DNA of 64,000 nucleotides from an uncultured Planctomycetia bacterium. GTDB taxonomy: Bacteria; Omnitrophota; Gorgyraeia; 1-14-0-20-64-10. The stretch's first letter is position 1. Each line of letters opens with the position of its first letter. Shown piece after piece: positions 22,354-55,564 of this stretch. A model generated the notes under the pieces. The model made no database searches. It was not told the DNA's origin and saw nothing but the letters and a program-made list of their open reading frames with translations. A program made the position numbers and the translations under genes. Where the stretch lies: contig CAYJWF010000003.1 of assembly GCA_964373805.1 (NCBI GenBank), positions 23,001 to 87,000 on the forward strand, written 5' to 3'.

Positions 22354-23835
22354 TCATCCGAACTCCACTTTCCGTTGGTAAACCAAAACGGGAAGAGCCT
22401 TCGGATCGGATCGAAACCGGTGATAGCCCGGATCGGGACGATTCTGCCAAGGGATGTCCGGTGCGTCAAGAAGAATGGGTCGGTAGCGCCTCTGGATCTC
22501 CTGATGGTAGGGGCTGTTGAAGAATTCCAGGGAGATCCGGTCTCGTCGAATGACGATCCAATCGGGGTAAGTCTCGCGCGTAAACTCTCCCAGCCGTCGC
22601 AGCGGCTCCACCTTGAGACCCGTATAGAAAATGATCGGCATCTCTTCGTAAGGGGTTTTCACGACCTCCCCCGGCTTAGCGTTGGCCTTGAAGAACTCCA
22701 CCACCCCATCGATGGGTCCCCGATAGGGATGGGTCAGTTCTCCCAAGAACTCGATGAGAAGAGAACGCACCGGGACCTCCGGATGGGAGAGTTGTTTCTT
22801 GACCACTGGAATCTGAGCCGCCAGGATCGAGGAACCGGAATATTGGAGGAGATAAACCCAAGGCAGAAGAAAGATGAGATACCGGAAGTGGCGTTGTTCG
22901 GGAATGAAGATGAGGAAGAGGAAGCCCACTCCCAGCAAGCACCCCACGAGGCTCCAAGCCTGGCGGATACGAACCTCGGAATCTCCAAAGAGAGCTCGAG
23001 GAGAAGTTTTGGTGAGGGCCAAGAGGAGAGTCCAGAAAACAATGGGAACCACGAAGCGGTTCACCTGACGAAAATAAAATTCCAGGTGATGTCGGATTTC
23101 CAGCCCCAAGAAGGCGCGGTGGTGTTGCCCGCTTTGAAGGTAGATCATCCAAGGTACGGTCAGGAAGCCGACCGCCACGAGTAGGGCTAGCCCCCGGTTC
23201 AGTTGGGACGCCAAGGGGCGACTTAAGGCAAAGTGGAGTCCCAGAGCAGCCAGGGTGGCCGCGAATACCCCGTGGTCGGTATGGAACAGGAGAGCCAACG
23301 CCGCCATCAGCTCCAGGCCGGCCCACCTTCTTTCCCGGAGGAACCGCCAGTAGGCCAACGCGCTCCACAAGGAAAAGAAGACTGTGGGGGCGTAATATCG
23401 GCATTGGCGCATATGGAGAAGGAACGGCACGGAGGTTACCAGAAAGAGGCTTACTCCTCGAGCCAAGGAGATGTTTTGAAAGAGCCTTTTTACAACCGCG
23501 TAACTTAAAAGTAAGGCCGCCAGACCAAAGAGGGCGAAGGGAAAACGGGCAGAGACGGTGCCTTCTCCAAACAAAGAGAAGGAGGCCGCCGCCAAAACCA
23601 TCGGCAACCAAGAATGGTAAGTCCAGGCGTACCCTTCCCTCACGGGTAAGGCGGGGTTCACGTAATTTGCACCGTCAAAGGCCTTGGGATATCCGAATTG
23701 GAGGGTATGGCGGCCTAAAAGAGCCGTCTCCGCTTCATCCTGCCAGAGTCGGCCGTTACCTAAGTTGGTTAAAAGGAAAAGAGAACCGATCACGAGTAAC
23801 CCCAGGGCCCAAGGATCCGACTTAAGAAATTTCAT
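22354..23835 (-). CDS. GT-C fold membrane glycosyltransferase, ArnT/PMT-like (GT39/GT83 family)
   Basis: 493 aa, ~11 predicted TM helices. N-terminal loop with DE motif (GRLWQDEAETAL) characteristic of polyprenyl-P-sugar dependent GT-C enzymes. Sits next to the ArnC-like gene. Confidence 0.65.
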   Translation of the reverse strand: MKFLKSDPWALGLLVIGSLFLLTNLGNGRLWQDEAETALLGRHTLQFGYPKAFDGANYVNPALPVREGYAWTYHSWLPMVLAAASFSLFGEGTVSARFPFALFGLAALLLSYAVVKRLFQNISLARGVSLFLVTSVPFLLHMRQCRYYAPTVFFSLWSALAYWRFLRERRWAGLELMAALALLFHTDHGVFAATLAALGLHFALSRPLASQLNRGLALLVAVGFLTVPWMIYLQSGQHHRAFLGLEIRHHLEFYFRQVNRFVVPIVFWTLLLALTKTSPRALFGDSEVRIRQAWSLVGCLLGVGFLFLIFIPEQRHFRYLIFLLPWVYLLQYSGSSILAAQIPVVKKQLSHPEVPVRSLLIEFLGELTHPYRGPIDGVVEFFKANAKPGEVVKTPYEEMPIIFYTGLKVEPLRRLGEFTRETYPDWIVIRRDRISLEFFNSPYHQEIQRRYRPILLDAPDIPWQNRPDPGYHRFRSDPKALPVLVYQRKVEFG

Positions 23836-24913
23836 CGGCCCTTTCCTTCCCGAAAAGTTGATCGATGGTTTCTAGGACCTCTGCCACGGTTAACCCCTTG
23901 AGACAAGCGTTGTCCCAAGGGCACGGGGGGAATCGGAATCCCTGATAGCAAGGTCGACAGGCGAGACCTTTGGCCACGGTGCGATGACCGTTTCCCTGGG
24001 GCCCGTAGACCGTGCCGTCCACGGGCCCAAAGATCGTTACAGTCTTCGTTCCCACCGATGCGGCCAGATGCATGGGACCGCTGTCGTTGCCGATGACCAG
24101 AGCGCATCGTTTGAGAAGTCCAGCCAGGAGCAGGAGGGAGGGAACCTGGACCGCGAGGATCGCCGCAGAAGGCGAGAGGGTATGGGCAATGGCTTGACAG
24201 AGGAAGGCCTCTTCGGAATCTCCCAGCAGTAGGATCCGAGCCCGGTAGCGTTTGGCCACATGGGCGGCCACCTGAGCGAAGCGCTCGGCCGGCCACTGCT
24301 TGAAAACCGCCTGTGGCCCCCAACTGGCTCCTCCTCCCGGGACGATGCCGACGATGGAATCGCGGTCGCCGACGTCTTGAGATTTTAGGTACTCGGCCGC
24401 TTCCTCCCGGACCGTTTCTGGAAGGTCAAACGAATGACGGATCGAAACCCGCGGCCGGATTCCAAGAGGCGTCAAAAGCTCCAGATAATGGTGGGCCACC
24501 GGTTGGTGGTGGAATCCGTTCAGGGGAAAGCGGTCGGTGAGAAATTTCCCCCGTCCGTGGAAGTCAAAACCTATCCTCTTGGGGATCCCGGCCAGCCGGC
24601 CGGCCAACCCGTACTGCCATCCGAGCGAAAGGTCCACCAACACGTCGAAGGGCTGCTGTCGGATCGTATCGATGAGTTTCCCCAAATAGCGTAATCCCTC
24701 TAAGAGAGATTCACGCCAAAAGGCCCGAAATGTATCCTTTTCAAAAACGTAAACGCGATCGACGAACGGCCAGCCTTCCACCAGCTCGCTGGTTCGTCGG
24801 TTACAGAGAAACCCCAGGAAACCGTGGGAATCAAAATCCCGTAAGGCGTGAAGGAGGGGCAGCGTGGCTAGGACATCTCCAATTCCGAAGGGATTCGCGA
24901 TCAGGATTCGCAT
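23822..24913 (-). CDS. GT9 family glycosyltransferase (LPS heptosyltransferase-like)
   Basis: MRILIANPFGIGDVLATLPLL N-terminus and C-terminal GNDSGPMHLAA motif. Confidence 0.8.
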   Translation of the reverse strand: MRILIANPFGIGDVLATLPLLHALRDFDSHGFLGFLCNRRTSELVEGWPFVDRVYVFEKDTFRAFWRESLLEGLRYLGKLIDTIRQQPFDVLVDLSLGWQYGLAGRLAGIPKRIGFDFHGRGKFLTDRFPLNGFHHQPVAHHYLELLTPLGIRPRVSIRHSFDLPETVREEAAEYLKSQDVGDRDSIVGIVPGGGASWGPQAVFKQWPAERFAQVAAHVAKRYRARILLLGDSEEAFLCQAIAHTLSPSAAILAVQVPSLLLLAGLLKRCALVIGNDSGPMHLAASVGTKTVTIFGPVDGTVYGPQGNGHRTVAKGLACRPCYQGFRFPPCPWDNACLKGLTVAEVLETIDQLFGKERADEIS

Positions 24914-24932
24914 AAACTTTCCGAATGGAGGG

Positions 24933-25922
24933 CTATGTTTTTCCGGCCAGGGCGACGATGTTGGGAGCCAAAGAGCCGATGGACCCCATTCGGAGCCACC
25001 GCTCAGGCTTCGCTAACCAGTAGAAGAGGGAACGCCCCAGATGCCGCTTCCAGTCCATAGTCCAAGGAGATGGATACTGGTAATACTGCCCGACGTACTG
25101 ATGCCAGACCGGTGTCTGGATCGGTTTTCCTATTGTTATTCGAACTATGGAAAAACCGGCTCGCTCCAGCATGCGGACTAATGTCTTATCGGTGTAATGG
25201 ACAACGTGTTCATAAGAATCCCAGATACCCTGGGTTGGCCTTTTTCCCATGAGCTCGAGGGCCCTTTGTTTATAGAGGTTCCAGCGGCCGTTCGGCACCT
25301 TAACATAGAGGATGCCATCGTCCGCCAAGAATCGGTGGACGTCCTTTAAGAAGGGTAATGGCTCACCGATGTGTTCAAGGACATCTGAGAGCGCGATGAC
25401 GTCGAATGCCCGTTGTTCACATTCGGGAAGCTCATGGAGGAAACAGTTGTAGACGGTAAGGCCAAAATGCTGGACGGCCAGCTTTGAGATGGAGGGTGAT
25501 GGCTCAACGCCAACAGCGCTCCAGCCTTCTCTCCTAACGTGTCGAAGGAGCATCCCCATGTTGCAACCAACATCTAGAAATCTGCCGGAGGGTTTATAGC
25601 GTTTAATGAGCTCTAGCTCTTCGATATAGTTGGGGTCTCGATGGTGAGCAGCTTTTTCCTCGAATATAAGACGGGCCTCGGCGTAATACAGGTCGGGATC
25701 TCCCCAGTAGATTTTCTCAGGCGCCTTGATTCTCGGACATGCATAGAGGAGCGAACACGACAGACATCTGGAAATACCAATAGAACCATGCTCGGTATAA
25801 ATTTGCTTCCGGCGCTCACTCCTACAGAAGGGACACGGGACGGTCACCACTTCCTCGGGTGAATAATGATCCTTCTGGGTTCCGCCCCTGACGTAAGCCT
25901 GGGATTCTTCAATGAGTGGCAT
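24933..25922 (-). CDS. SAM-dependent methyltransferase with N-terminal Cys4 zinc-ribbon
   Basis: CPFCRS...CLSCSLLY zinc ribbon, then LDVGCNMGMLL motif I and DVIALSDVLEHI. Confidence 0.7.
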   Translation of the reverse strand: MPLIEESQAYVRGGTQKDHYSPEEVVTVPCPFCRSERRKQIYTEHGSIGISRCLSCSLLYACPRIKAPEKIYWGDPDLYYAEARLIFEEKAAHHRDPNYIEELELIKRYKPSGRFLDVGCNMGMLLRHVRREGWSAVGVEPSPSISKLAVQHFGLTVYNCFLHELPECEQRAFDVIALSDVLEHIGEPLPFLKDVHRFLADDGILYVKVPNGRWNLYKQRALELMGKRPTQGIWDSYEHVVHYTDKTLVRMLERAGFSIVRITIGKPIQTPVWHQYVGQYYQYPSPWTMDWKRHLGRSLFYWLAKPERWLRMGSIGSLAPNIVALAGKT

Positions 25923-26915
25923 TCAGCCGGTCCTCCGATGGCCTTGGATGGATAGGCTCTCCTGGACGGCAGCAGTCACTTCTTCAGGCACGGGGGAAAG
26001 AAGAAGATGGTGCCCTTCCCCTAGAGGACGCCATCGGGCAAGCAAAGATCCATGGTTGCACGGAGCGACCACAACGGTTGGGGTTCCGACGGCTGCTGCA
26101 ACGTGAACCGGCCCACTATCGTTTGATACCAGTACGGCGCATTGTTTCAAAAGAGCCGGAAGAATCCCTAGCGGGACTCGGCCGACCAGGTTTATATAAC
26201 CGGTAGAAAACATGGGTTTCGCTTCATCCATGGAGTGGATGGATTCTGGTCCTCCTATGACGACGATGGTATGCCCGCTTTTCTGAAGCAGACGGGTGAC
26301 TTCTCCAAAGGATTCCAGCGGCCAGCTTTTTTGAGGGTTGCTTGTCCAGGGATGGATGGCAATGGGGTGATGGCCTAGGGCAATACCACAAGCATTCATG
26401 AGCTGTTGGGCTTGACTTTCTTTCTCTGGATCGGTGGGTAGGTGTAAGGTCGATGGGGATGCCGGGATTCCTAAGAGGCGAACCAGTTCGAGATTATAGT
26501 TTACCTCATGGTGGTTTCTGAACACCTTGGTATCTGGAATGGACAAGGTCAGTAGAACTCCTAGTTTTCGATGGTAGCCAATCCGGGTGGGAATGCCGGC
26601 GAGAAAAGCGGCAACGTGAAATAGTTTGGTGGGATTAAGTATAATGGCACTATCGAACCTTTCCTTTCGCAGACGCCTTGCAACTCGAAAAGCTCCAACC
26701 CAACCCTTCCCTTCCTCAGGGGAACACGTCAGGATTCGATCGACGTCCGGATGCCCTTCGATGAGCGGCTCCAGGCCTTGCTGAACCAAGAGGGTGATTT
26801 GAGCTTTGGGGAAAGCCTCACGAGCAGCATGGACGGCCGGCAGACTCAAGAGCAATTCCCCCATCCGATCTGTCCGTACGAGCAGGATTCGTGATAGCGT
26901 TCGAGGTTCTTTCAT
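25923..26915 (-). CDS. GT9 family glycosyltransferase (LPS heptosyltransferase-like)
   Basis: ILLVRTDRMGELLLSLPAV N-terminus and SNDSGPVHVAAA motif. Confidence 0.8.
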   Translation of the reverse strand: MKEPRTLSRILLVRTDRMGELLLSLPAVHAAREAFPKAQITLLVQQGLEPLIEGHPDVDRILTCSPEEGKGWVGAFRVARRLRKERFDSAIILNPTKLFHVAAFLAGIPTRIGYHRKLGVLLTLSIPDTKVFRNHHEVNYNLELVRLLGIPASPSTLHLPTDPEKESQAQQLMNACGIALGHHPIAIHPWTSNPQKSWPLESFGEVTRLLQKSGHTIVVIGGPESIHSMDEAKPMFSTGYINLVGRVPLGILPALLKQCAVLVSNDSGPVHVAAAVGTPTVVVAPCNHGSLLARWRPLGEGHHLLLSPVPEEVTAAVQESLSIQGHRRTG

Positions 26916-26930
26916 GGAGTCCGCATGTTT

Positions 26931-28190
26931 TCACTCCTCCCTTATCTCTTCGGAACGTAAGATCTGAAGGCTCAAGCCAACCGCTAAGCCGGAGAGAACC
27001 CAGAAGAGCGTTGCTTGTCTTAAGGCGTAAAGGTTGGTATCAAAGATAGACTGGACCAGAAATGCGGCTATTCCCGCAACGAGCCCCAGGAGAAATAATC
27101 TCAAGTCCGGTGGAGCAGGTTTTCGAAGGGCCTTATTCCACACCATAAAAAGTGAACCCAAAAATAGGAGAAAACTTATTAAGCCGAGCAACCCCGTTTC
27201 TGCAGTAATCTGGAGAAGACAGTTATGGGCATAGGCAGGTCCGTTATTCGGAACATCGGCATAGTCGAGGTAATTTGCCATAAAGGTATTCAGTCCATGC
27301 CCAAGGAATGGCCTGTCCTGGATCATACGCCATCCCACTTTCCACATAACGTGCCTTTCTTGTAGACCGGCGTCTGAGAAAGCCAACATCTCGAAGAATT
27401 GGCCCTTTCTGAAGAATAAGACGGCTGAGCTCATGGCTAACGCAACACTGAGGCCGATTCCTACCATTCTTTTTCGTGAATAGATCAACAGAAGAGAAAG
27501 TCCAGCCCACAGACCAATCAGGGCTCCCCTCGAAAGAGTCCAGGCAAGGCATCCCAGAATAAGAAGCCCGCCTAGCCACCCGCTAATCCGAGTCTGTTTG
27601 GGACGACTCAGCAGATGAGCAAGCATCACAAGACCCACGACCATCAGAAAGGTGGCGAGGTCATTCGGGTTCTCATAGGGTCCTACCATTCGAGAATAGA
27701 CCAGCGCTCTATCCCGGATCGGGTCGCGTCCGGCGACCTGCTGTATCACCGCGTAGATCCCAACTAACCAGGCAGCGCCGAGTAAGGCCCGAAGGCTACG
27801 AGGAGCTACTGTAGGGTGGTCGGCTATCTCCATCACAATGACAAAAAATAGAAGATACTCGGCTGTTTTTCGAACAAGAGCTTGGATGCTGAGGAAGGGA
27901 TAGGTGCTGTAAGATACCGACCAGATGCAGACGCCCAGATAGGCGAACAGAGTGAATAAGATGGCCTGATTCGGCACGGATTTTACTAGGAGGGGCTCTT
28001 TCCTCCCAGGCCAATGCCATCCGATTAACCATGACACGAGCAGGAGCGGAAAGAGGATCTCGATCCCTGCCTTGGAGAACGGTATAACCCATAGAAGGCT
28101 GTAGAGAAGCCCACGAGCTATCCTTTGCATCCGGGGGGGTAAACCGTAGTTATTAACTTTCCCTCTGGGATCTAAATTCTCCCTGCGCAA
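26931..28190 (-). CDS. O-antigen ligase family protein (WaaL/Wzy_C domain)
   Basis: ~10 TM helices. Conserved periplasmic loop AHNCLLQITAETGLLGL and the upstream SRGAL motif. Alternative start at internal ATG ~28130. Confidence 0.7.
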   Translation of the reverse strand: MRRENLDPRGKVNNYGLPPRMQRIARGLLYSLLWVIPFSKAGIEILFPLLLVSWLIGWHWPGRKEPLLVKSVPNQAILFTLFAYLGVCIWSVSYSTYPFLSIQALVRKTAEYLLFFVIVMEIADHPTVAPRSLRALLGAAWLVGIYAVIQQVAGRDPIRDRALVYSRMVGPYENPNDLATFLMVVGLVMLAHLLSRPKQTRISGWLGGLLILGCLAWTLSRGALIGLWAGLSLLLIYSRKRMVGIGLSVALAMSSAVLFFRKGQFFEMLAFSDAGLQERHVMWKVGWRMIQDRPFLGHGLNTFMANYLDYADVPNNGPAYAHNCLLQITAETGLLGLISFLLFLGSLFMVWNKALRKPAPPDLRLFLLGLVAGIAAFLVQSIFDTNLYALRQATLFWVLSGLAVGLSLQILRSEEIREE

Positions 28191-29961
28191 GAGTACCGAC
28201 CACCTTCCAACTCAGGCCGTTTTCCTCACAATAGCCCTGAATTTGTTGAACAAGATCTTCGGGTGGTTGGCGTATGGCGATGAGAACTTCCCGAACGCCG
28301 AATTCCTGTACGACCTTCCCTAACCCCTGACGAGATCCGATGATCCGAATCCCGTGTATGCTGTCTCCCTGCTTGGTGAGATCGTCATCCAAGAAGCCAA
28401 CCACCCGATACTTTCCTGAACCGGCTAACTTCAATTGTTGAAGCAGGAGTTCCCCGGTGTCACCGGCTCCGACAATAAGAACGGGAATACCCCCTTGAAT
28501 GGAAGAGGTGATCCATTCGTTTAAGAGCGGTTCTATGATTCTCGCCCCGCTGACCGCTACGAACAGGAGAAGGCCATCAATAACAAAAACAGCTCGGGAG
28601 TACCCCTCAAAGCGCCACAGGTACAGCACGACGAGGGCCGAAAAAACGGACCCAACGATAACCGCTCGAAGTATGTTGGTCAGATCGGGTAGGCTGATGT
28701 ATCGCCACACTCCTCGATAAAGCCCGCACGAGAAGAAGCAGATCATCTTTACGGCAATGATCCAGGGAAGGGATCTTAAGATGAGAATTTCCAGATCCGG
28801 AGTGAGGGTCGCTTCGAACCGCAGCGCATGGGCGATGACATAAGAGGCGCAGATCAGTGCAAAATCCACGCAGACTTCCACGAGTCGCCGTTTATGCATC
28901 AGCATCGTTTCGATAAAGGCAACGCGTGATCCCATTACGGACGAAGAAACCCGTGTGTAAACGCGGACCTTGGCGAAGTAAGCTCCGATGACGAAGAGAA
29001 GTCCCGTGGCCAATATGGAGATGCCCGTTAGGGCCATGGGCTTTTGTTTGGATAACAGAATACTTATCGCCCCGCAGGAGGCGGTAAAGGCATAGAGGGC
29101 GAAAACAACCTGACGGGGGGTCAACCCAAGAATTCCTAACCGGTGGGAGAGGTGATCTGTGCCTCCTTGGAATGGATGCCGACCATTGAGAAGTCTTTGG
29201 ATGGTCACAAAACAGGTGTCGAAGATCGGCACCGCCAGCAAAAAGGTAGGCAGGGCTAAGATTCCCGCCAGGCGTGCTGGCTGGTGCCAGGTGCCCATCA
29301 AGGCGAGCGTCCCCAGACCCAGCCCTAAAACCTGGCTGCCCGTATCTCCCATGAAGATCTTTGCTGGCGGAAGGTTGTATCGAAGAAATCCTAATGTCGC
29401 TCCGCCCAAACTCGCAGAGATAAGGGCAACCAACCACTGTTGGGTCTCAAGGGCATGCCAGGCACAAAAGCTTGCCGCAATGACGCCAATCCCACCGGAA
29501 AGTCCATCCATGTTGTCCATCAGGTTAAAGGCGTTCATGACAAGAACAAGCCATCCGATGGTCAACGGAATGGTAAGCCATGGGATCACGATGTCGGCTT
29601 GGATGCCTGAGACAACGACGAGACACCCTGAAAGAATCTGAACAATCAGTTTCGAATAAGGATGGAGCCTCCGGAGATCGTCTACAAGTCCAGCAAGCAA
29701 CATGAGCACCCCTCCGAGCATCAGGCCGATCATCCGGGGATCCTTGTGGATTGCCCATCCAACGGCTGCCAAAAAGCCCAAGGCGATTGGAAGGCCGCCG
29801 AGACGGGCAACGACTCGGCGACCCCATCGATCTTGAGAGGGACGAGAAACACATCCGATGGAGATGGCAACTGTCCGTACCAAAGGTGTCAGGAGGATGG
29901 AAAAGAGGTAGGCTCCACTGCCTATCAACAAGATCTGTAACAGCGATGCGGCCAGCGTCAT
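28153..29961 (-). CDS. polyprenyl-phosphate N-acetylhexosamine-1-phosphate transferase (GT4 MraY/WecA family) fused to a C-terminal TM + Rossmann (CoA-binding-like) module
   Basis: N-terminal ~350 aa carry the WecA/MraY motifs DDLRRL, NAFNLMDNMDGL and IFMGDTGS. C-terminal ~250 aa carry 4 TM helices then IPVLIVGAGDTGELLLQQLK...YRVVGFLDDD. That resembles the N-terminal domain of WbaP/CapD-type enzymes but lacks their catalytic domain. Confidence 0.7.
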   Translation of the reverse strand: MTLAASLLQILLIGSGAYLFSILLTPLVRTVAISIGCVSRPSQDRWGRRVVARLGGLPIALGFLAAVGWAIHKDPRMIGLMLGGVLMLLAGLVDDLRRLHPYSKLIVQILSGCLVVVSGIQADIVIPWLTIPLTIGWLVLVMNAFNLMDNMDGLSGGIGVIAASFCAWHALETQQWLVALISASLGGATLGFLRYNLPPAKIFMGDTGSQVLGLGLGTLALMGTWHQPARLAGILALPTFLLAVPIFDTCFVTIQRLLNGRHPFQGGTDHLSHRLGILGLTPRQVVFALYAFTASCGAISILLSKQKPMALTGISILATGLLFVIGAYFAKVRVYTRVSSSVMGSRVAFIETMLMHKRRLVEVCVDFALICASYVIAHALRFEATLTPDLEILILRSLPWIIAVKMICFFSCGLYRGVWRYISLPDLTNILRAVIVGSVFSALVVLYLWRFEGYSRAVFVIDGLLLFVAVSGARIIEPLLNEWITSSIQGGIPVLIVGAGDTGELLLQQLKLAGSGKYRVVGFLDDDLTKQGDSIHGIRIIGSRQGLGKVVQEFGVREVLIAIRQPPEDLVQQIQGYCEENGLSWKVVGTLAQGEFRSQRES

Positions 29962-31781
29962 GTACGCCGAAACAAATGGGTAATCCCGTGTACGGAGGAG
30001 TACAGGAATAGACCGAAGCCGATAACCCCAATAAAACGAAAAGGTTCCGCGGAAAATCGGCCGAAACGCCAGAGGGTTTTTTGACTTTCCAATGGATAAT
30101 AGACGACTAGGCCGTTTGTGAGAGTCCCCTGGCTATCCAGGGAAAAAGCGCGTCGGATTCGAAGGTAGGAATTTCCAAGCCCGTTGTTGTAAAGATCCGT
30201 CCGTTCCTGAGGGCTAAGGAGCCGCCTCCAGATGCTGACCTCATCAATGCAGCCGTTCATATAGCCCCCGCCCTCGTGGAAATTGGAGAAACGGCCAATC
30301 GTGAACTCGAAAGGGCTGTCGTAGCTGGTTGTCTCCGGTGGCATCGTGGCCGTATCGATGGAGCCATTGTTAACCTGTATGGAGAGGGTATTCGGATCTA
30401 TCCCACTTGTCTGGTACCAGGCCACGATATAGTACCAAGTTCCAGTAGCAGGAGCACTAGAGTTGTAAGAACCAGTGGCCCAGGAGTTTAAACCGTTGCC
30501 TACCGTAAACTCAAAGACGTCCTGGCTGGGGCTGTAGCGTAGTAGATACTCATTAGAATGGGTCTTACTCGAATCTCCTTTGCTGGCGAAAATCATCTCC
30601 TCCTTGCTCTCTAAATAAACCCAGGCTGCCACCGTAAAGTCGACGTCCCCCATGCTGAGCTTCGGATTGTCTGGAGTACTGAGATACTGTGCTTCAGTCC
30701 GAACAAACTTAGCCGTTTTGCCTACTTTACCATCCACTGAGGTGACGTTGTTATGGTTCACAAGTTGGGTTTCACCATCACCCGGGTGGCTGGCGTCCGA
30801 AAGATTGGGCAGTGTCAAGAGCTGTGCCTTCCACGGATTTTCCTGGAAGAACCTGGCCTTCCAGCCTCTGTCTTCTGCGGCAGCGACCCAGACAATTTGG
30901 GGGAAGGCTGTTAAGGTGCTGGGCCAACGCCAGCTTTCCTTTCCGGCGGAAGCGACGAGGATAACCTTCTGACGAGCGGCATAGGCCGTCGTTTCCACCA
31001 AGCTTTGGGAGGCCCACCAACCTCCAAAGCTTAAGTTGATCATTTGAACTCCCTGCTTGACGGCGTAGGTAATGGCTTCGCAGATGGCTGCGGTCGACAG
31101 CCACGGACCGGATCCCACCCGTAACGGTAAGAAGAACAATTCCGTTTCCTCTGTTCCGGTGAGGATGGAAGAGATGACCTCGCTTCCATGAGATTTAAAA
31201 GCCCCTTCCCCACGGGGATCGGGGTCCCGTCCGTAAAAATCGTAACCCTGGAAATCATCGATGTAGCCGTTCCCATCATTATCGGTCTGATCGACTGGGA
31301 TTTCGCCGGCATTCTTCAGCAGCCGATCCGATAAGATGGGCTGCGTCAGATCAAAACCAGAGTCAATCACGGCTATGGAAAATCCTTTGCCGGCCGCTTG
31401 TCCAGTGACGATCGCTGATCCTTTGGTATCCACGGTGTGAAAGAAGGCTGTTAACTTGTAGTTCGGCTCAGCGTATACGACGGCCGGATAGGTGCGAAGA
31501 TGTTCGAGAACCTTCGCCACGGGTATCGACTGATTGAAGCTAACCAAGTAGAGTCCCCAGGGAGCGATTTCGCGCTCAATGGAGATATGGACCTCCTCTG
31601 TAATCTTTTTAAGTTGGGATAAGGGCGTTTCCAGATCAAACCTGACTAAGGCCTGCCCCGGCAGAAAATCCGGAGAGGCTTCCTCAATCCTTGCCTCTGC
31701 CGGGCAATCCTTCGCGTTTAGGATTTCCATGCAAAGGCAGATTGCGACGAACCAGAATACCCTACGGCTGACCATACACAC
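29958..31781 (-). CDS. secreted subtilase-like (S8) protein with degenerate active site, LamG/ConA-like lectin domain and C-terminal hydrophobic anchor
   Basis: Signal peptide. S8 Asp (AVIDSGFD) and His (HGSEV) regions and INLSFGG are present. The oxyanion Asn position reads SAGK, and no GTSxA serine segment was found. Instead a LamG-like domain follows (DVDFTVAAWVYL...IDEVSIWRRLLSPQERTDLYNNG). C-terminus AEPFRFIGVIGFGLFL...RRT resembles a PEP-CTERM-type sorting signal. Confidence 0.6.
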   Translation of the reverse strand: MCMVSRRVFWFVAICLCMEILNAKDCPAEARIEEASPDFLPGQALVRFDLETPLSQLKKITEEVHISIEREIAPWGLYLVSFNQSIPVAKVLEHLRTYPAVVYAEPNYKLTAFFHTVDTKGSAIVTGQAAGKGFSIAVIDSGFDLTQPILSDRLLKNAGEIPVDQTDNDGNGYIDDFQGYDFYGRDPDPRGEGAFKSHGSEVISSILTGTEETELFFLPLRVGSGPWLSTAAICEAITYAVKQGVQMINLSFGGWWASQSLVETTAYAARQKVILVASAGKESWRWPSTLTAFPQIVWVAAAEDRGWKARFFQENPWKAQLLTLPNLSDASHPGDGETQLVNHNNVTSVDGKVGKTAKFVRTEAQYLSTPDNPKLSMGDVDFTVAAWVYLESKEEMIFASKGDSSKTHSNEYLLRYSPSQDVFEFTVGNGLNSWATGSYNSSAPATGTWYYIVAWYQTSGIDPNTLSIQVNNGSIDTATMPPETTSYDSPFEFTIGRFSNFHEGGGYMNGCIDEVSIWRRLLSPQERTDLYNNGLGNSYLRIRRAFSLDSQGTLTNGLVVYYPLESQKTLWRFGRFSAEPFRFIGVIGFGLFLYSSVHGITHLFRRT

Positions 31782-32772
31782 TGACGTGGATATCGGGTGT
31801 GATCCCGTTTATCTCCTTTCGGTAGTAGGCGATGACGTTCTCAAGGATATCGTTGAGTTTCATGGTGGGGGAAAAGCCGACAAAACGGTTTGCCTTCGTA
31901 ATATCAGGCACTCGCCTCACCATATCTTCGAATCCCTCTTCATAGGCTTTATCGTAGGGGATGTAGGAAATCTGAGACCGGCTTTCGGTCAAGTCGATGA
32001 CGTGTTTGGCCAGCTGCTCAATGGAAACCTCCTCTTGACTCCCGATGTTGAAGGCCTCTCCTGCCGCCTCGGGTAATTCCATCAGCCTTGCCATCGCGAG
32101 AACGGCATCCTTGACGTAGAGAAAACAACGAGACTGTTTCCCGTTTCCATAGATGGTCAAGGGATCTCCTCGTAGGGCCTGCTGGACGAAACGGGGGATC
32201 ACCATGCCGTAGGCTCCCGTTTGACGGGGACCTACCGTATTGAACAGTCGGACGATCACGGTAGGAATTCCCTTTTCCTTCCAATACGTGTAGGCAAGGA
32301 TTTCATCAACCGCCTTCGATGTGGAATAAGCCCACCGACTTTTCAAGGGAGAACCCAGTATCCGATCCTCATCCTCTTTGAGAGGTCCATTGGTGTTCTT
32401 GCCATAAATCTCTGAGGTAGAGGTGATGAGGACTCGTCTCCGATAGCGGTGGGCCATATCCAGGACAATCTCGCTGCCTCGAATGTTTGTCGTCAATGAT
32501 TCCAGCGGATGCTTGATGATCAGGTCCACTCCCACGGCCGCTGCCAAATGAAAAACAGCATCGGAGCGCTCCACAAATTTGTCCACGAGACGCTCATCCA
32601 GAATAGAGCCCACTACCAGCTGGAAGGAGGGATGTCCCTTGAGTGGGTTGCAGTTTTCGACGCGGCCCGTTGAGAGATTATCGAGAACTACCACCTGATG
32701 TCCTTGAGCGATGAGAACCTCGGCCAAATGAGATCCGATAAAACCAGCGCCACCTGTAATGAGTACTCGCAC
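31762..32772 (-). CDS. NAD-dependent epimerase/dehydratase (UDP-sugar epimerase / decarboxylase-like SDR)
   Basis: ITGGAGFIGSHL and YSTSK motifs, 336 aa. Confidence 0.75.
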   Translation of the reverse strand: MRVLITGGAGFIGSHLAEVLIAQGHQVVVLDNLSTGRVENCNPLKGHPSFQLVVGSILDERLVDKFVERSDAVFHLAAAVGVDLIIKHPLESLTTNIRGSEIVLDMAHRYRRRVLITSTSEIYGKNTNGPLKEDEDRILGSPLKSRWAYSTSKAVDEILAYTYWKEKGIPTVIVRLFNTVGPRQTGAYGMVIPRFVQQALRGDPLTIYGNGKQSRCFLYVKDAVLAMARLMELPEAAGEAFNIGSQEEVSIEQLAKHVIDLTESRSQISYIPYDKAYEEGFEDMVRRVPDITKANRFVGFSPTMKLNDILENVIAYYRKEINGITPDIHVSVYGQP

Positions 32773-33992
32773 TAACCTTTTCCTCCTAACTGCTCATACA
32801 GCGTTGAGATATCCTGTATGAGCCGCTCCTGGTTGAATTCCTTTAGGGCGTAGGAACGGGCCGCTTCCCCCAGCTTCCTTCGGAGGCCGGCATCTGCTGC
32901 AACCAACTTCAGCGCGGCGGCCATCCCTTGCGCATCTCCCGGGCGGATGAGTATCCCTCGATCGGTGACTTCGTATCCGCCGCTCGGAATATCCGCCGTG
33001 AGAACTCCTTTGCCCTCTAACAAGTCACGAACCCCTCCGACGTCCATTGCGACAACGACACGGCCAGCCGCCATGGCCTCAATAAGACAAACCGGTGTCC
33101 CCTCATTCTGTGAGGTGAGACAGACGACGTCCAGGCACTCGTACCAAGTACGGAGATCTTTCTGCCAACCGATGAACCGAACGACCCCTGCGAGATCTCG
33201 CCTTCTCACCTCTTCCTCCAATTTTTCTCTCAGAGGCCCATCGCCTACCACGAAAGCCTCTACGGCATGGAGAGGGATCTGCTTGACGAACTGTCCTACC
33301 GCTTCAAGGAAGAGGCTTGGGTTCTTAATAGCAACCAGTCTGCCTACCAGGCCGCATCGGAAGACGCAGGAGCCATTCCGGGATGGAATCTTGGCCAAGG
33401 CAGACAGATCAATCCCCAGAGAGATCACTTGGACCTGATCCTCTCGACCGATTCCTTTTTCTAGAAGTTCCTGACGTATGGCTGCACTCACTGCGATAAG
33501 GCGGTCCGTATAAAGCGACAACCACCGTTCGAGAAAGATAAAAGCCCTTGTCAGCCAGGGATGGAAATAGCCTTCGAGAACATGCCCATGGAACGTGTGG
33601 ATCAGCACCGCCTTTTTCCCCGATGTTCTCCCGTAACCGATCCGGTTATACAGAATCCCCGCCAGGCGGCCTAGGGTTCCTGATTTGGCCATGTGCGTAT
33701 GGAGGATATCGGGCCGTTCTTTCCATACAATCAAAACGATTTGAAGCAGAGCAACAGCATCCGCCCAAGGGCGGATCGAGCGGCGAAGGCTCTTGATTTG
33801 AATGAGCCGTGTTGGGTGGCCCTTGAACCGCTCACTTAAATCACCTTCTCTCGCATCGGATTCTCCAACCACTAGACACGTGGAGAATCTTTCCGAATCC
33901 AGTCCGGCCGACAAAACAGAAGCGTGAACAGCCGGACCCCCAATATTTAAGCGGGTTAAAACCCTGAGGATCTTTATCACGGCTTGGCACAT
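32772..33992 (-). CDS. GT4 family glycosyltransferase (GT-B)
   Basis: N-terminal Glyco_trans_4-like region (LNIGGPAVHASVL) and C-terminal E..E motif region (SQNEGTPVCLIEAMAAGRVVVA). Confidence 0.75.
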   Translation of the reverse strand: MCQAVIKILRVLTRLNIGGPAVHASVLSAGLDSERFSTCLVVGESDAREGDLSERFKGHPTRLIQIKSLRRSIRPWADAVALLQIVLIVWKERPDILHTHMAKSGTLGRLAGILYNRIGYGRTSGKKAVLIHTFHGHVLEGYFHPWLTRAFIFLERWLSLYTDRLIAVSAAIRQELLEKGIGREDQVQVISLGIDLSALAKIPSRNGSCVFRCGLVGRLVAIKNPSLFLEAVGQFVKQIPLHAVEAFVVGDGPLREKLEEEVRRRDLAGVVRFIGWQKDLRTWYECLDVVCLTSQNEGTPVCLIEAMAAGRVVVAMDVGGVRDLLEGKGVLTADIPSGGYEVTDRGILIRPGDAQGMAAALKLVAADAGLRRKLGEAARSYALKEFNQERLIQDISTLYEQLGGKG

Positions 33993-34044: not shown

Positions 34045-34767
34045 TTAGGATGAAGGTCTAAAGAGTCTTAAGATCTCCATCTTCAGCCGAGGCCAGGGTT
34101 TCTGCCGTTGTATCCGGGAAGGATTGACGCCCAACTCAGAGACGGTTTCAAAATAGCGCTCGTAGGCGATGCCGTTGATCTGAAGCCCTTTGGCAGCGGC
34201 TCGGATGAGCTGAGGATCTCTCTGAAGTTCTTCCCAATGGGCTAACTGACCCCGTTCGTTGGTAAAAAAAATCCCGTTGGCTACATCAAAAAGGATTACC
34301 TTTTCTTCCCCTACCTGAACGACTGCCACAATGATCTGGTGTGAGAGTCCTTTGGCCTTCAAGATGGTTGAGCCTGTAGGGAAGCCACCATAACTTGCGA
34401 GCAGTGCGAAAGCCTCGGTCCTTTGATCGGGCGCTCCATATCCCCGGATGAGGACGTTGAGGATGTGGTCGTCTACAATGGGGAAATTGCCCGGGATCGG
34501 GCGTACGTTCTTCACCGTCCAGAAGAAAAGCTTCTCCAGTCTCTCTTGATCCGTGGTCGCCCCCTGCGTGATCTCTTGTGCTAAACGTCGGGCCTGGAGG
34601 TCGCGACTTACGAAATGGATGGCCTTCTCATACAGGGGAATTTCCTTACTCGACCAAACGAAATCTATCCCTGAGCGCGTTGTCACGGGCCAGCTCAGGA
34701 TTAAAGTTCCTGTCACGACGACAAGCGTTGCACCAATTCCCCAGTGAACCGAGCTCAATTTTTTCAA
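34045..34767 (-). CDS. membrane-anchored transglutaminase-like protein with substituted catalytic Cys
   Basis: Track ORF 34045..34980 overlaps the upstream gene by 216 nt. An in-frame TTG at 34767 forms a TTGA overlap with the upstream stop and is preceded by AAGGG. It would give (M)KKLSSVHW plus a TM helix. The TGase-like core is GATTDQERLEKLFFWTVKNV...RGYGAPDQRTEAFALLASYGG (Gly where the Cys is expected)...SHQ...FDV. Confidence 0.45.
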   Translation of the reverse strand: MKKLSSVHWGIGATLVVVTGTLILSWPVTTRSGIDFVWSSKEIPLYEKAIHFVSRDLQARRLAQEITQGATTDQERLEKLFFWTVKNVRPIPGNFPIVDDHILNVLIRGYGAPDQRTEAFALLASYGGFPTGSTILKAKGLSHQIIVAVVQVGEEKVILFDVANGIFFTNERGQLAHWEELQRDPQLIRAAAKGLQINGIAYERYFETVSELGVNPSRIQRQKPWPRLKMEILRLFRPSS

Positions 34768-40149: not shown

Positions 40150-40937
40150 TGTTCTGCTGCCTTCACGACTTGTCCCGTGTTCTCCAAGGCTGGTTTGACT
40201 CCGTGGGCTTTTAACCAGAACTCCACCAATGGAATCTGCCATTCGTAGTCCACATCGAGGCCCCCCCATTGCCTGAGCGGCCAAATTTTCTGTCCCATCC
40301 ATCTTTGCGGGAGCAACCCGCTCTTTAGATTTTCGAGGCAGCGTGGCCTGACGACAGACACTCCCATGTCTGCAAAATAGACATCCCCTTGCGAATCCCT
40401 GTCACAGCTTAAAGTGGTCGGATCTCCCCAGGCCTCAAACGGTACGAATGGATGGAGCAAACCGTCGGAGCCTAGTCGGCGTGCTCGGGGTGGACTCCAC
40501 ATGTTATAGACCGACACCGATACCGCAGAATCAATCTCTGGGCGTTTTCTAAGGACATCCACTCCTTCATCAATTAATGCCGAGGTAACCGTCGGGGCGT
40601 TGCAGAACAATAACACCATCAGCTCCAGATGCTTCCCCTCAGCCATCAGCTCATTACGGATGATCTGGTAACCGTGGACAAAGGCCTCTTCGCCTAGAGC
40701 TTCTTGAGTAGCCAGATGAGGTGGTCGATCGAGGATTCGTGCGCCGTATTGAATCCCAATCGCCTTGATGAGGTCAGAATCCGTGGACACAAAAACGCGA
40801 TCTACGCTCCGGGCCCCTTGTGATGCCAGCAGAGGATAAACCATAAGGGGGCGGCCAAGGATGGGAGTGAGATTCTTTCCCGGAAACCCCCTGCTTCCTT
40901 CCCGGCCTATAAGGAGCGCACAGATCATAGCTCTCAT
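40146..40937 (-). CDS. acylneuraminate (nonulosonic acid) cytidylyltransferase family protein (CTP_transf_3)
   Basis: ICALLIGREGSRGFPGKNLTPILGRPLMVYPL matches the NeuA/PseF/KdsB N-terminal glycine-rich nucleotide-binding motif. ATGA overlap at 40937. Confidence 0.7.
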   Translation of the reverse strand: MRAMICALLIGREGSRGFPGKNLTPILGRPLMVYPLLASQGARSVDRVFVSTDSDLIKAIGIQYGARILDRPPHLATQEALGEEAFVHGYQIIRNELMAEGKHLELMVLLFCNAPTVTSALIDEGVDVLRKRPEIDSAVSVSVYNMWSPPRARRLGSDGLLHPFVPFEAWGDPTTLSCDRDSQGDVYFADMGVSVVRPRCLENLKSGLLPQRWMGQKIWPLRQWGGLDVDYEWQIPLVEFWLKAHGVKPALENTGQVVKAAEQ

Positions 40938-55536: not shown

Positions 55537-55564
55537 CTGGCCTGCCTTTTTACCTGCCCGGGGT

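What the first reader, a model, noticed from the sequence alone, without database searches (positions are those of the whole stretch)
29958..31781. Secreted pseudo-subtilase fused to a LamG-like lectin domain with a PEP-CTERM-like tail, inside the glycan locus
The S8 Asp and His regions and the INLSFGG block are conserved. The oxyanion Asn position reads K, and the Ser-bearing GTSxA segment is absent. A ConA/LamG-like domain follows, then a C-terminal AEP plus hydrophobic stretch plus RRT. A catalytically dead protease scaffold joined to a carbohydrate-binding domain and a possible exosortase-type sorting signal suggests a surface-anchored glycan-binding protein rather than a protease. It could act as a chaperone or length-determinant for the polysaccharide made by the neighbouring genes.
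Basis: seen in the sequence. Interest (0 to 1): 0.6.

Follow-up and report, generated by a model that had tools for sequence, protein, structure and literature searches.

The report
Truncated dead subtilase fused to lectin
This gene encodes an exported, probably membrane-tethered protein made from the front two-thirds of a subtilisin-type protease (no catalytic serine) joined to a lectin-like LamG domain; it is a rare add-on to a widespread cell-surface-sugar gene cluster in a few uncultured PVC-group bacteria, and it is probably a sugar-binding helper, not a protease and not an exosortase-sorted surface protein.

Summary
The ORF (29958-31781, minus strand, 607 aa) is real and the sequence observations hold. 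It has a signal peptide, a fervidolysin-type prodomain and an S8 domain that keeps Asp140, His198 and the INLSFGG block. Lys281 sits at the oxyanion-Asn position. The Ser-bearing last ~80 residues of the catalytic domain are absent, not mutated: homology to intact relatives stops at about residue 326 and a Laminin_G_3 domain takes over. A linker and one C-terminal hydrophobic helix follow.

The PEP-CTERM reading fails. No sorting-signal HMM matches any family tail at E<=10, while a synthetic control scored 1.3e-8. The first Pro of PEP is absent in every member, the basic end is weak, one paralogue lacks the tail, and no exosortase lies in the window or in four related loci.

The family is tiny: four 50%-identity clusters among about 15 billion proteins. 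It always sits in an epimerase / WecA-like / Wzy_C / GT9 module. Closely related Omnitrophica-type modules lack it, so it is an accessory insertion. It evolves faster than its neighbours (dN/dS 0.60 versus 0.23).

Best reading: a non-catalytic, inner-membrane-anchored periplasmic glycan-binding accessory. The specific role is unproven. Interest is modest.

The parts
29958..31781 (-). Whole ORF, 607 aa (GTG start at 31781; alternative ATG at 31775). Truncated pseudo-subtilase fused to LamG.
31713..31781 (-). Sec-type signal peptide (M[C]MVSRRVFWFVAICLCMEILNA|KD). The public gene call starts at M18 and omits it.
   Evidence: A hydrophobic peak (KD19 1.64). An in-frame signal peptide is conserved in all four lineages. 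The public call is 590 aa.
31446..31685 (-). Fervidolysin/I9-type N-terminal prodomain (residues 33-112), expected to stay covalently attached because there is no catalytic Ser.
   Evidence: PF22148 at 32.9 bits against a cutoff of 21. AF2 pLDDT >90. The top Foldseek hits include unautoprocessed pro-subtilisin E, 3whi.
30804..31391 (-). S8 remnant (residues 131-326), corresponding to BPN' ~23-204. It includes the conserved DNDGNGYIDD loop and the INLSFGGWW block. The helix carrying Ser221 and the C-terminal helices are missing.
   Evidence: AF2 is confident only for 134-280, and 281-336 has pLDDT <50 in both runs.
31362..31364 (-). Asp140 codon (catalytic Asp equivalent), invariant in 10 of 10 aligned sequences
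31188..31190 (-). His198 codon (catalytic His equivalent); Arg in paralogue P0002
30939..30941 (-). Lys281 codon at the oxyanion-hole Asn position (K/K/Q/H/P across the family)
30177..30773 (-). Laminin_G_3 / ConA-like beta-sandwich (residues ~337-535)
   Evidence: PF13385 at 73 bits against a cutoff of 27.6. AF2 pLDDT 85-95. Foldseek matches PAPP-A LamG, TeNT/BoNT Hc-N, laminin LG5, agrin LG3, pentraxins and BACOVA_03559.
30039..30176 (-). Low-confidence linker (residues 536-581) with the conserved juxtamembrane motif LWRFGR..xPF
29961..30038 (-). C-terminal hydrophobic helix (582-603, invariant GxxG..LF.YSS..G) plus FRRT. Read as a membrane anchor, not as PEP-CTERM.
31762..32772 (-). Upstream NAD-dependent sugar epimerase/dehydratase. 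Its 3' end overlaps the target's start by 20 nt.
28153..29961 (-). Downstream WecA/MraY-type (PF00953) initiating transferase fused to a WbaP-type N-terminal/CoA_binding_3 module. Its start overlaps the target's stop in an ATGA overlap.
26931..28190 (-). Wzy_C (O-antigen ligase/polymerase family) membrane protein
23822..26915 (-). Two GT9 (heptosyltransferase family) genes flanking a methyltransferase. They are part of the conserved module.
32772..33992 (-). GT1-fold (Glycos_transf_1) transferase, part of the conserved module

Best explanation
The gene encodes a non-catalytic, Sec-exported, bitopic inner-membrane protein whose bulk faces the periplasm. Its order is signal peptide, uncleaved prodomain, the first ~two-thirds of an S8 fold, a LamG beta-sandwich, a flexible linker, one C-terminal transmembrane helix and a 4-residue cytoplasmic end.

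It arose from a secreted S8 protease of the clade represented by P0200, P0204 and P0220, when the segment after the 'APG' strand (carrying Ser221, its helix and the C-terminal helices) was replaced by a LamG domain.

I propose that it works as a locus-specific accessory. The LamG domain binds the glycan, or its lipid-linked intermediate, that is made by the co-transcribed module at the periplasmic face. The pro-S8 remnant serves as a rigid scaffold or protein-contact module. The conserved GxxG-containing helix holds the protein in the membrane next to the WecA-like or Wzy_C enzymes.

Shown: domain architecture, loss of the catalytic apparatus, export signal, conserved operon context, accessory status and rapid evolution. 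Inferred: membrane topology, glycan binding and any partnership with Wzy_C or WecA.
For: Architecture and dead active site.

Structure: two AF2 runs with different alignments agree. The prodomain, S8 residues 134-280 and LamG are confident, while 281-336 is never confident. Foldseek matches pro-subtilisins for the N-terminal part and non-enzymatic LamG, pentraxin and toxin-Hc binding modules for the C-terminal part.

Topology: each tail-bearing member has exactly two hydrophobic peaks, an N-terminal signal peptide and a C-terminal helix. A signal peptide is conserved in 4 of 4 lineages.

Operon: there is a 4-nt ATGA overlap with the WecA-like start and a 20-nt overlap with the epimerase end. 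The same coupling is seen in L001.

Context: the gene is linked to GT1, epimerase, WecA-like, Wzy_C and GT9 in three diverged lineages (40-54% identity), including a rearranged order in L003 and two copies in L001.

Function retained: long-term ORF maintenance, and dN/dS below 1 (0.60, binomial p=0.04).

Tail: it is as conserved as the rest of the protein, with invariant GxxG and YSS. That fits specific helix packing.
Against: No direct evidence exists for glycan binding, and LamG_3 modules also bind proteins.

The module functions without this gene in close relatives.

It is the fastest-evolving gene of the module: 40-54% identity against 56-80% for neighbours, and dN/dS of 0.60 against 0.23 for the adjacent gene, Fisher p=0.0015. 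Constraint is therefore weak.

The juxtamembrane side preceding the helix carries more Arg (WRFGR..PFR) than the C-terminal end. This is not ideal for the positive-inside rule under the proposed topology.

Paralogue P0002 has no anchor at all.

A truncated S8 fold may not be stable, and AF2 does not model residues 281-336.
Confidence: 0.5

Rival explanations
1. The tail is an exosortase (PEP-CTERM-type) sorting signal. The protein is cleaved at AEP and displayed on the cell surface as a glycan-binding protein.
For: The tail has a tripartite look (short motif, hydrophobic stretch, RRT) at the extreme C-terminus of a signal-peptide protein in a polysaccharide locus. PEP-CTERM systems occur in PVC bacteria (PMC1569441). 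Neighbours give weak, sub-threshold matches to XrtA-associated families: TIGR03097 at 50 bits against a cutoff of 188, and TIGR03088 at 115 bits against 409.
Against: No NCBIfam sorting-signal model hits any of three family tails at E<=10, while a synthetic canonical tail hits TIGR02595 at 1.3e-8 and 17 other models. The first Pro of the PEP tripeptide is absent in every member, and only the second Pro is conserved. The hydrophobic stretch is ~22 aa instead of ~14 and contains YSS. The basic end is RRT, QNDRG or EGKQKGSSSL. No exosortase lies in the window or in the flanks of four related loci. A metagenome scan for the tail motif found it only on this family. Paralogue P0002 lacks the tail.
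Confidence: 0.06
2. An evolutionary relic. A protease gene crippled by a deletion or fusion persists in the operon with little or no function.
For: It is the fastest-diverging gene in the module. Its dN/dS of 0.60 is only marginally below neutrality (p=0.04) and significantly above its neighbour's. It is absent from close relatives whose module is otherwise intact. The family is extremely rare. The S8 fold is incomplete and partly unmodelled.
Against: An intact ~570-635-codon ORF is maintained in four lineages down to 40% identity. Residues are conserved throughout, including family-specific invariants (GWW, C234, the tail GxxG/YSS). Two copies are maintained in one genome. Translational coupling is preserved. 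The signal peptide is conserved. Neutral sequence would not stay open over that divergence.
Confidence: 0.12
3. A protein-binding role instead of a glycan-binding one. The frozen prodomain/S8 cleft or the LamG domain binds a periplasmic protein or peptide (for example a partner enzyme, pilus/adhesin or peptidoglycan stem), or the protein is itself an acceptor for Wzy_C-type O-glycosylation.
For: Known bacterial pseudo-subtilases act as ligand sensors or regulators, not on glycans (C. difficile CspC/CspA; PMC6636752 and PMC7200643). Asp140, His198 and the substrate-cleft block SFGG are retained in the anchored copies. Many LamG structural neighbours bind proteins (PAPP-A, neurotoxin Hc). The Wzy_C family includes O-oligosaccharyltransferases (weak TfpM and TIGR03097 hits).
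Against: No partner is identifiable. There are no Ser/Thr-rich acceptor tracts in the linkers. The conserved genomic association is with sugar-nucleotide and lipid-linked glycan enzymes only.
Confidence: 0.2
4. It is still an enzyme. Either the Asp-His pair works with an alternative nucleophile, or the ConA-like domain acts as a glycanase or lyase.
For: Asp140 and His198 are conserved in the three anchored lineages. The ConA-like fold superfamily includes GH and PL families.
Against: The whole Ser221 helix and the oxyanion Asn are missing, and His is Arg in P0002. The beta-sandwich matches Laminin_G_3 and lectin or pentraxin structures, and no GH or PL family or structure.
Confidence: 0.03

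Closest known systems
Clostridioides difficile CspC / CspA subtilisin-like pseudoproteases
   Same: They are bacterial S8-family members that have lost catalytic residues, keep the prodomain associated, and act non-catalytically (PMC7200643 and PMC6636752).
   Different: The Csp proteins keep the complete S8 fold with point substitutions, are soluble spore proteins and sense germinants. Here the last ~80 residues of the fold are deleted and replaced by LamG, the protein is exported and membrane-tethered, and it sits in a glycan operon.
Intact secreted S8 proteases with a fervidolysin-type prodomain (clade of P0200, P0204, P0213 and P0220; also fervidolysin 1r6v and deseasin MCP-01 3vv3)
   Same: They are collinear with the target and 37-43% identical over ~280 residues (prodomain plus S8 up to the APG strand). 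They share the motifs DNDxNGYxDD and LRVGPGPxLSxxAIxEAIxYA.
   Different: They retain AAGN and GTSF[AS]AP and the full catalytic domain. Their C-terminal extensions are Ala/Gln/Arg-rich coiled-coil-like tails, not LamG plus a TM helix.
PEP-CTERM / exosortase substrates (TIGR02595; Haft 2006)
   Same: An N-terminal signal peptide, a hydrophobic segment at the extreme C-terminus, and an association with polysaccharide loci.
   Different: The HMM fails, the PEP motif is not conserved, the hydrophobic stretch is longer and contains polar residues, the basic end is weak, no exosortase is nearby, and the tail is confined to one family.
Locus-encoded glycan-binding helpers of polysaccharide assembly (for example the outer-membrane lectin Wzi of E. 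coli group 1 capsules, PMC3791409; Wzz/PCP chain-length regulators)
   Same: Conceptual only: a non-catalytic protein encoded within a surface-glycan locus that acts on the product outside the cytoplasm.
   Different: There is no sequence or fold relationship. Wzi is an 18-stranded outer-membrane barrel, and Wzz has two TM helices and a coiled-coil periplasmic domain. There is no Pfam PCP/Wzz hit here. The functional analogy is untested.

Membership tests
Peptidase S8 (subtilase) | Significant match to the PF00082 family profile | tested here: met
   49.5 bits against a gathering score of 21.8, but covering only profile positions 1-155 of 288
Peptidase S8 (subtilase) | Catalytic Asp (DxG/DTG motif) | tested here: met
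   Asp140 in AVIDSGFD, invariant in 10 of 10 aligned sequences
Peptidase S8 (subtilase) | Catalytic His (HGT motif) | tested here: met
   His198 in KSHGSE; Arg in paralogue P0002
Peptidase S8 (subtilase) | Oxyanion-hole Asn (AAGN) | tested here: not met
   Lys281; the family shows K/K/Q/H/P
Peptidase S8 (subtilase) | Catalytic Ser in GTSxA at the N-terminus of the central helix | tested here: not met
   The segment is absent. Homology ends at ~residue 326 (BPN' ~200). No remnant exists in any frame.
Peptidase S8 (subtilase) | Complete alpha/beta subtilisin fold | tested here: not met
   AF2 run twice: confident only to ~280, residues 281-336 at pLDDT <50, and nothing equivalent to helix F or the C-terminal helices
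Laminin_G_3 / ConA-like lectin superfamily | Family profile match and beta-sandwich fold | tested here: met
   PF13385 at 73 bits against 27.6. AF2 pLDDT 85-95 and Foldseek hits to LG, pentraxin and Hc-N modules at E~1e-8.
Laminin_G_3 / ConA-like lectin superfamily | Carbohydrate (or other ligand) binding | not testable with these tools
   Needs glycan arrays or ITC on the purified ectodomain
PEP-CTERM / exosortase substrate | Match to TIGR02595 or a related sorting-signal HMM | tested here: not met
   Zero hits at E<=10 for three family tails. A synthetic canonical control scored 1.3e-8, 35 bits against a cutoff of 16.
PEP-CTERM / exosortase substrate | Near-invariant Pro-Glu-Pro motif | tested here: not met
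   AEP, TEP, VAP and LDP; only the last Pro is conserved. The definition is from PMC1569441.
PEP-CTERM / exosortase substrate | [quoted passage not shown] | tested here: not met
   A ~22-residue stretch with invariant YSS and Gly residues, ending in RRT, QNDRG or EGKQKGSSSL
PEP-CTERM / exosortase substrate | N-terminal signal peptide and motif at the extreme C-terminus | tested here: met
PEP-CTERM / exosortase substrate | Exosortase (EpsH/Xrt) in the genome and several unrelated carriers of the same tail | tested here: inconclusive
   No PF09721 or Xrt in the 64-kb window or in the fetched flanks of L001/L002, L003 and L082. A metagenome scan for the tail pattern found only this family. Whole genomes could not be searched, and the tail-profile protein search was uninformative.
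Subtilase prodomain (Fervidolysin_NPro-like / I9-type) | Profile match and beta-alpha-beta-beta-alpha-beta fold N-terminal to S8 | tested here: met
   PF22148 at 32.9 bits against 21. AF2 pLDDT >90 for residues 40-112.
Wzz / polysaccharide co-polymerase (chain-length determinant) | PF02706 Wzz domain with two TM helices flanking a coiled-coil periplasmic domain | tested here: not met
   No such Pfam hit. Only one C-terminal TM helix plus a cleavable signal peptide.

The most novel reading that the evidence does not exclude
The protein represents a previously unrecognised type of periplasmic co-factor for Wzy_C-family ligases/polymerases or for the WecA-like initiating enzyme. It would be a membrane-tethered lectin built on a truncated pro-subtilase scaffold. 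Through its conserved GxxG helix it would dock onto the glycan-assembly enzymes and capture or select the lipid-linked glycan, controlling product length, ligation specificity or hand-over. This would be a non-Wzz solution found in some uncultured PVC (Omnitrophota/Planctomycetota) bacteria. Its elevated dN/dS would then reflect co-evolution with a variable glycan.
Probability: 0.12. Interest if true: 0.6.

Novelty: new variant of a known kind. Interest (0 to 1): 0.35.

Why it matters
Pseudo-proteases are a recognised but sparsely populated category in bacteria. Among S8 members the documented examples are essentially the clostridial Csp proteins, which keep the whole fold. This family shows a more radical route: the catalytic third of the domain is deleted, the prodomain and the first two-thirds are kept, and a lectin-type module and a membrane anchor are added. 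The gene is then recruited into a surface-glycan operon.

If the glycan-binding accessory role is real, it would add a new component type to O-antigen and LPS-like assembly in poorly known PVC lineages. It would also give a natural test of how much of the subtilisin fold can stand alone.

The significance is limited by rarity (four 50%-identity clusters among ~15 billion proteins), by dispensability in close relatives, by weak selective constraint, and by the lack of any cultured host.

On the practical side, public gene calls mis-start three of the four family members and so hide their signal peptides. The 'PEP-CTERM-like' impression is a useful cautionary example of a tail that looks tripartite by eye but fails the models.

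Tried and rejected
1. PEP-CTERM or another known C-terminal sorting signal. Rejected on HMMs with a positive control, on motif non-conservation and on the absence of a nearby exosortase.

2. One-off deletion, pseudogene or assembly chimera. Rejected because the architecture recurs in four independent assemblies down to 40% identity.

3. The Ser segment hidden in another frame or elsewhere. Rejected by tblastn of intact relatives' C-terminal segments.

4. A decayed second copy in the 770-nt 'gap' upstream of GT1. Rejected. The gap holds a separate 240-aa ORF.

5. A frameshifted tail after paralogue P0002. Rejected, because there is a genuine stop and no tail in any frame.

6. Tail-profile search of the 5.8-billion protein database. 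It returned nothing, not even the family itself, so it is uninformative and I did not use it as evidence.

7. Promoter/terminator scan of 22-37.5 kb. All hits are intragenic and at about the shuffle expectation, so it is uninformative. The operon inference rests on gene overlaps.

8. The C-terminal helix substituting for the missing S8 helix F. I considered this and rejected it. AF2 leaves the helix isolated, and P0002 has the same truncated S8 without the helix.

9. Lipoprotein signal. No conserved lipobox across members.

10. Literature searches for a described LamG or pseudo-subtilase component of O-antigen systems found none.

Full report
**1. The observation**

The ORF lies at 29958..31781 on the minus strand and encodes 607 aa. 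Pfam finds three domains:
- Fervidolysin_NPro-like prodomain, residues 33-107, E=8.7e-8.
- Peptidase_S8, residues 131-283, E=4.7e-13. The match covers only profile positions 1-155 of 288.
- Laminin_G_3, residues 363-526, E=3.8e-20.

NCBIfam gives only sub-threshold partial S8 matches and no sorting-signal model. PDB sequence matches to subtilases all stop at query ~316-318, which corresponds to BPN' residue 194 and thermitase residue 200. That is upstream of the catalytic Ser.

In a 55-sequence alignment the canonical motif columns are each shared by 42-45 S8 proteins. The query family reads as follows:

| Position | Query family |
|---|---|
| Catalytic Asp | Asp140 |
| Catalytic His | His198 (Arg in paralogue P0002) |
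| Oxyanion Asn | Lys281 (K/K/Q/H/P across the family) |
| Catalytic Ser | nothing homologous |

The cleanest evidence is the alignment with the closest intact relatives, found by the profile search: P0200, P0204, P0213, P0220, P0259 and P0263. They are collinear with the target from the prodomain through '...KAxFSxYGxxVDFxAPG', which matches query '...KARFFQENPWKAQLLTLPN' at about residue 326. They then continue to 'GTSF[AS]AP...', whereas the target family enters the LamG domain. Locally they are 37-43% identical over ~280 residues. Their Ser-bearing C-terminal segments find nothing in any frame of the window. The loss is in fact larger than described: about 80 residues of the catalytic domain, including the buried Ser221 helix, have been replaced.

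**2. Structure**

Two AlphaFold2 runs used different alignments (55 and 16 sequences) and agree.
- The prodomain (40-112), the S8 N-terminal part (134-280) and LamG (340-535) are confident.
- Residues 281-336 are below pLDDT 50 in both runs. This is the last retained S8 segment, and it is conserved in sequence.
- The linker is disordered, and the C-terminus forms an isolated helix.

Foldseek against the PDB returns two groups of hits. For the N-terminal part it returns PvSUB1, unautoprocessed pro-subtilisin E, fervidolysin and Tk-SP. For the C-terminal part it returns the PAPP-A LamG module, tetanus and botulinum Hc-N, laminin LG5, agrin LG3, pentraxins and a Bacteroides putative carbohydrate-binding protein. 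All of the LamG neighbours are binding modules. None is a glycoside hydrolase or a lyase.

**3. Termini and topology**

Each tail-bearing member has exactly two hydrophobic peaks, one at each end. The public gene call for the window's protein starts at M18 (590 aa), which would remove the first peak. However, all four lineages have an in-frame upstream start that yields a classical signal peptide:
- window: M[C]MVSRRVFWFVAICLCMEILNA
- P0003: MNGSKGAGLFSALLCLLLASAGTAGA
- P0002: MLTQKRFLRIFGLLLLLGGLSWVWGWVG
- P0004: MKLPLFKTFFITGVLLGLGLFGC

The intact relatives also carry signal peptides. I therefore take the protein to be exported. There is no conserved lipobox.

**4. The C-terminal tail is not PEP-CTERM**

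[quoted passage not shown] It is present on multiple proteins per genome together with EpsH (PMC1569441). The evidence against membership is as follows.
- The family tails read (A/T)EP, VAP or LDP.
- The hydrophobic stretch is ~22 residues, with invariant GxxG..LF.YSS..G.
- The ends are RRT, QNDRG or EGKQKGSSSL.
- Three tails scanned against NCBIfam at E<=10 gave no hit.
- A synthetic canonical tail, used as a positive control, hit TIGR02595 at 1.3e-8 and 17 other sorting models.
- No exosortase, sortase or rhombosortase is encoded in the 64-kb window or in the fetched flanks of the related loci.
- A metagenome scan for the tail motif gave 352 raw pattern matches, but the only tblastn-confirmed one was another copy of this same family.
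- Paralogue P0002 ends at a genuine stop before the tail.

A profile search with the tail alone returned nothing, not even the family itself, so I discount it. The parsimonious reading is a stop-transfer membrane anchor. The tail is as well conserved as the rest of the protein and contains a small-xx-small motif, which suggests specific helix packing. One caveat is that the periplasmic-side flank (WRFGR..PFR) carries more Arg than the C-terminal end.

**5. Distribution and context**

In 5.8 billion clustered proteins only P0001-P0004 share the architecture. A full HMMER pass over 1.84 billion representatives, with the family profile, again finds only these full-length. All other hits are LamG-repeat proteins or ordinary S8 enzymes. 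Among 185,579 species-representative genomes only one MAG has it.

Taxonomy is unresolved. That MAG is labelled 'uncultured Planctomycetia'. However, the named close homologues of the adjacent gene (64-68% identity) are all 'Candidatus Omnitrophica'. The lineage is PVC-group, probably Omnitrophota.

The window is a ~50-kb glycan locus (13.4-64 kb), almost entirely on the minus strand. The target overlaps the upstream epimerase by 20 nt. It shares an ATGA stop/start overlap with the downstream WecA-type transferase.

Gene order around the target in the three lineages:

| Locus | Order | Neighbour identity to window |
|---|---|---|
| Window and MAG L001 | GT1, epimerase, target, WecA-like, Wzy_C, GT9, GT9 and a methyltransferase (the methyltransferase lies between the two GT9 genes in the window and after them in L001) | 56-80% |
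| MAG L001, second copy | tail-less P0002 upstream of GT1 | - |
| Contig L003 | single copy (P0004) in that upstream position; Wzy_C is fused to GT9 | 57-78% for the module genes compared |

In three somewhat more distant relatives of the module the epimerase is followed directly by the WecA-like gene. These have WecA-like identities of 67-73% and include a 697-kb Omnitrophica contig. Their module is otherwise intact and has no S8 or LamG gene. The target is therefore a lineage-restricted accessory insertion.

**6. Selection**

The target is the most diverged gene of the module: 47-54% and 40% identity, against 56-80% for neighbours. Against a 94%-identical environmental variant (L080/L081), its dN/dS is 0.60 (23 synonymous and 47 non-synonymous differences). 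The adjacent WecA-like gene in the same genome pair gives 0.23 (52 and 37). The difference is significant (Fisher p=0.0015). The target is only marginally below neutrality (binomial p=0.04). Values are similar across the S8 part, LamG and the tail. Long-term maintenance of the open frame, the signal peptide, the family-specific invariants and the translational coupling argues against a dead gene. Constraint is nevertheless weak, as expected for a non-enzymatic binding or accessory protein, or for one that tracks a variable ligand.

**7. Mechanism**

Shown:
- An exported protein with an uncleavable prodomain, a catalytically void and truncated S8 scaffold, a LamG binding module and a C-terminal hydrophobic helix.
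- Co-transcription with, and conserved linkage to, a lipid-linked glycan initiation, ligation and core-heptosylation module.

Inferred:
- The protein is anchored in the inner membrane facing the periplasm.
- It binds the glycan or its lipid-linked precursor through LamG.
- It acts as an optional helper of the Wzy_C or WecA-like machinery.

I put ~0.5 on this composite. The architecture part is near-certain, and the glycan-helper part is perhaps 0.35-0.4.

Rivals and their confidences:
- A protein-binding or acceptor role: 0.2.
- A functionless relic: 0.12.
- An exosortase-sorted surface lectin: 0.06.
- Residual catalysis: 0.03.

**8. Comparison with what is known**

The nearest known kind is the bacterial pseudo-subtilase, represented by C. 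difficile CspC and CspA. Those proteins keep the full fold and act in spores. The nearest sequence relatives are intact secreted S8 enzymes with coiled-coil-like tails. Functional analogies to Wzi or Wzz are conceptual only and fail membership. No described LamG or pseudo-subtilase component of O-antigen systems turned up.

**9. Verdict**

This is a real, small and previously undescribed family: a new variant of the pseudo-protease theme. Interest is modest at 0.35.

Noticed in passing
window 34045-34767 (-); L003 6056-6787: A ~240-aa ORF with an N-terminal TM segment, missed by simple ORF filtering, lies between PMT_2 and GT1. Its L003 orthologue (55% identity) sits immediately upstream of the pseudo-subtilase there. 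Both give weak, sub-threshold Transglut_core matches (14.8 and 17.6 bits against a gathering score of 23) over the same region. By my reading both lack the catalytic Cys (RGYG[AT][PA]DQRTEAFALLAS). This may be a second degenerate protease-fold protein in the same module.
   Followed up: partly
window 28153-29961 (-): The initiating transferase is an unusual hybrid. The N-terminal part is a WecA/MraY-type PNPT domain (PF00953). It is followed by the N-terminal membrane/CoA_binding_3 module typical of WbaP/WcaJ-type phosphoglycosyl transferases (TIGR03025 positions 2-225 of 445), without their catalytic C-terminal domain. The protein has more than 1,300 homologues at E<1e-50, and those given a name by their source are mostly labelled Candidatus Omnitrophica and annotated 'hypothetical'.
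   Followed up: partly
L003 12771-14984: In this relative the Wzy_C protein is fused to a GT9 (heptosyltransferase-family) domain in one 737-aa product. This suggests that the Wzy_C enzyme works with the core heptosyltransferases, in a WaaL-like role.
   Followed up: no
window 13400-64000: The ~50-kb glycan locus shows no Wzx flippase, no Wzz and no ABC exporter by Pfam. It does contain two PMT_2 (GT-C) enzymes, two NeuB-like genes, a B12-radical SAM and a rSAM-SPASM enzyme, many methyltransferases, and Leptospira-type O-antigen families (TIGR04331 LIC12162 at 46633-48471 with 484 bits; a weak TIGR04326 match at 37094-39220). Several ~600-750-nt 'gaps' in my ORF map (for example 16803-17528, 40302-40934 and 54824-55565) were not inspected and may hide genes.
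   Followed up: no
window 31730-31781; L001 9905-10001 and 5866-6061: Public gene calls start three of the four family members downstream of their signal peptides (window product called as 590 aa from M18; P0003 and P0002 are also truncated). The callers probably avoided overlap with the upstream gene. As deposited, these proteins would be mis-predicted as cytoplasmic.
   Followed up: yes
L004 / L001 against homologues of window 28153-29961: There is a taxonomic label conflict. The only species-representative genome with the family is labelled 'uncultured Planctomycetia bacterium', while the named close homologues of the neighbouring gene are all 'Candidatus Omnitrophica bacterium'. The lineage is PVC-group, but its phylum assignment is unresolved here.
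   Followed up: partly
P0200, P0204, P0213, P0220 (proteins): The closest intact S8 relatives carry ~200-residue Ala/Gln/Arg/Leu-rich, coiled-coil-like C-terminal extensions that end in a conserved 'PLPEGL.ASEVPE' motif. This is an uncommon architecture for secreted subtilases.
   Followed up: no
P0010 (alignment, Ser column): A Nitrospirae protein annotated 'S8 family serine peptidase' shows 'NYRYTANFNL' where its neighbours have GTS in the MAFFT column. It could be another Ser-less S8, or it could be a misalignment.
   Followed up: no
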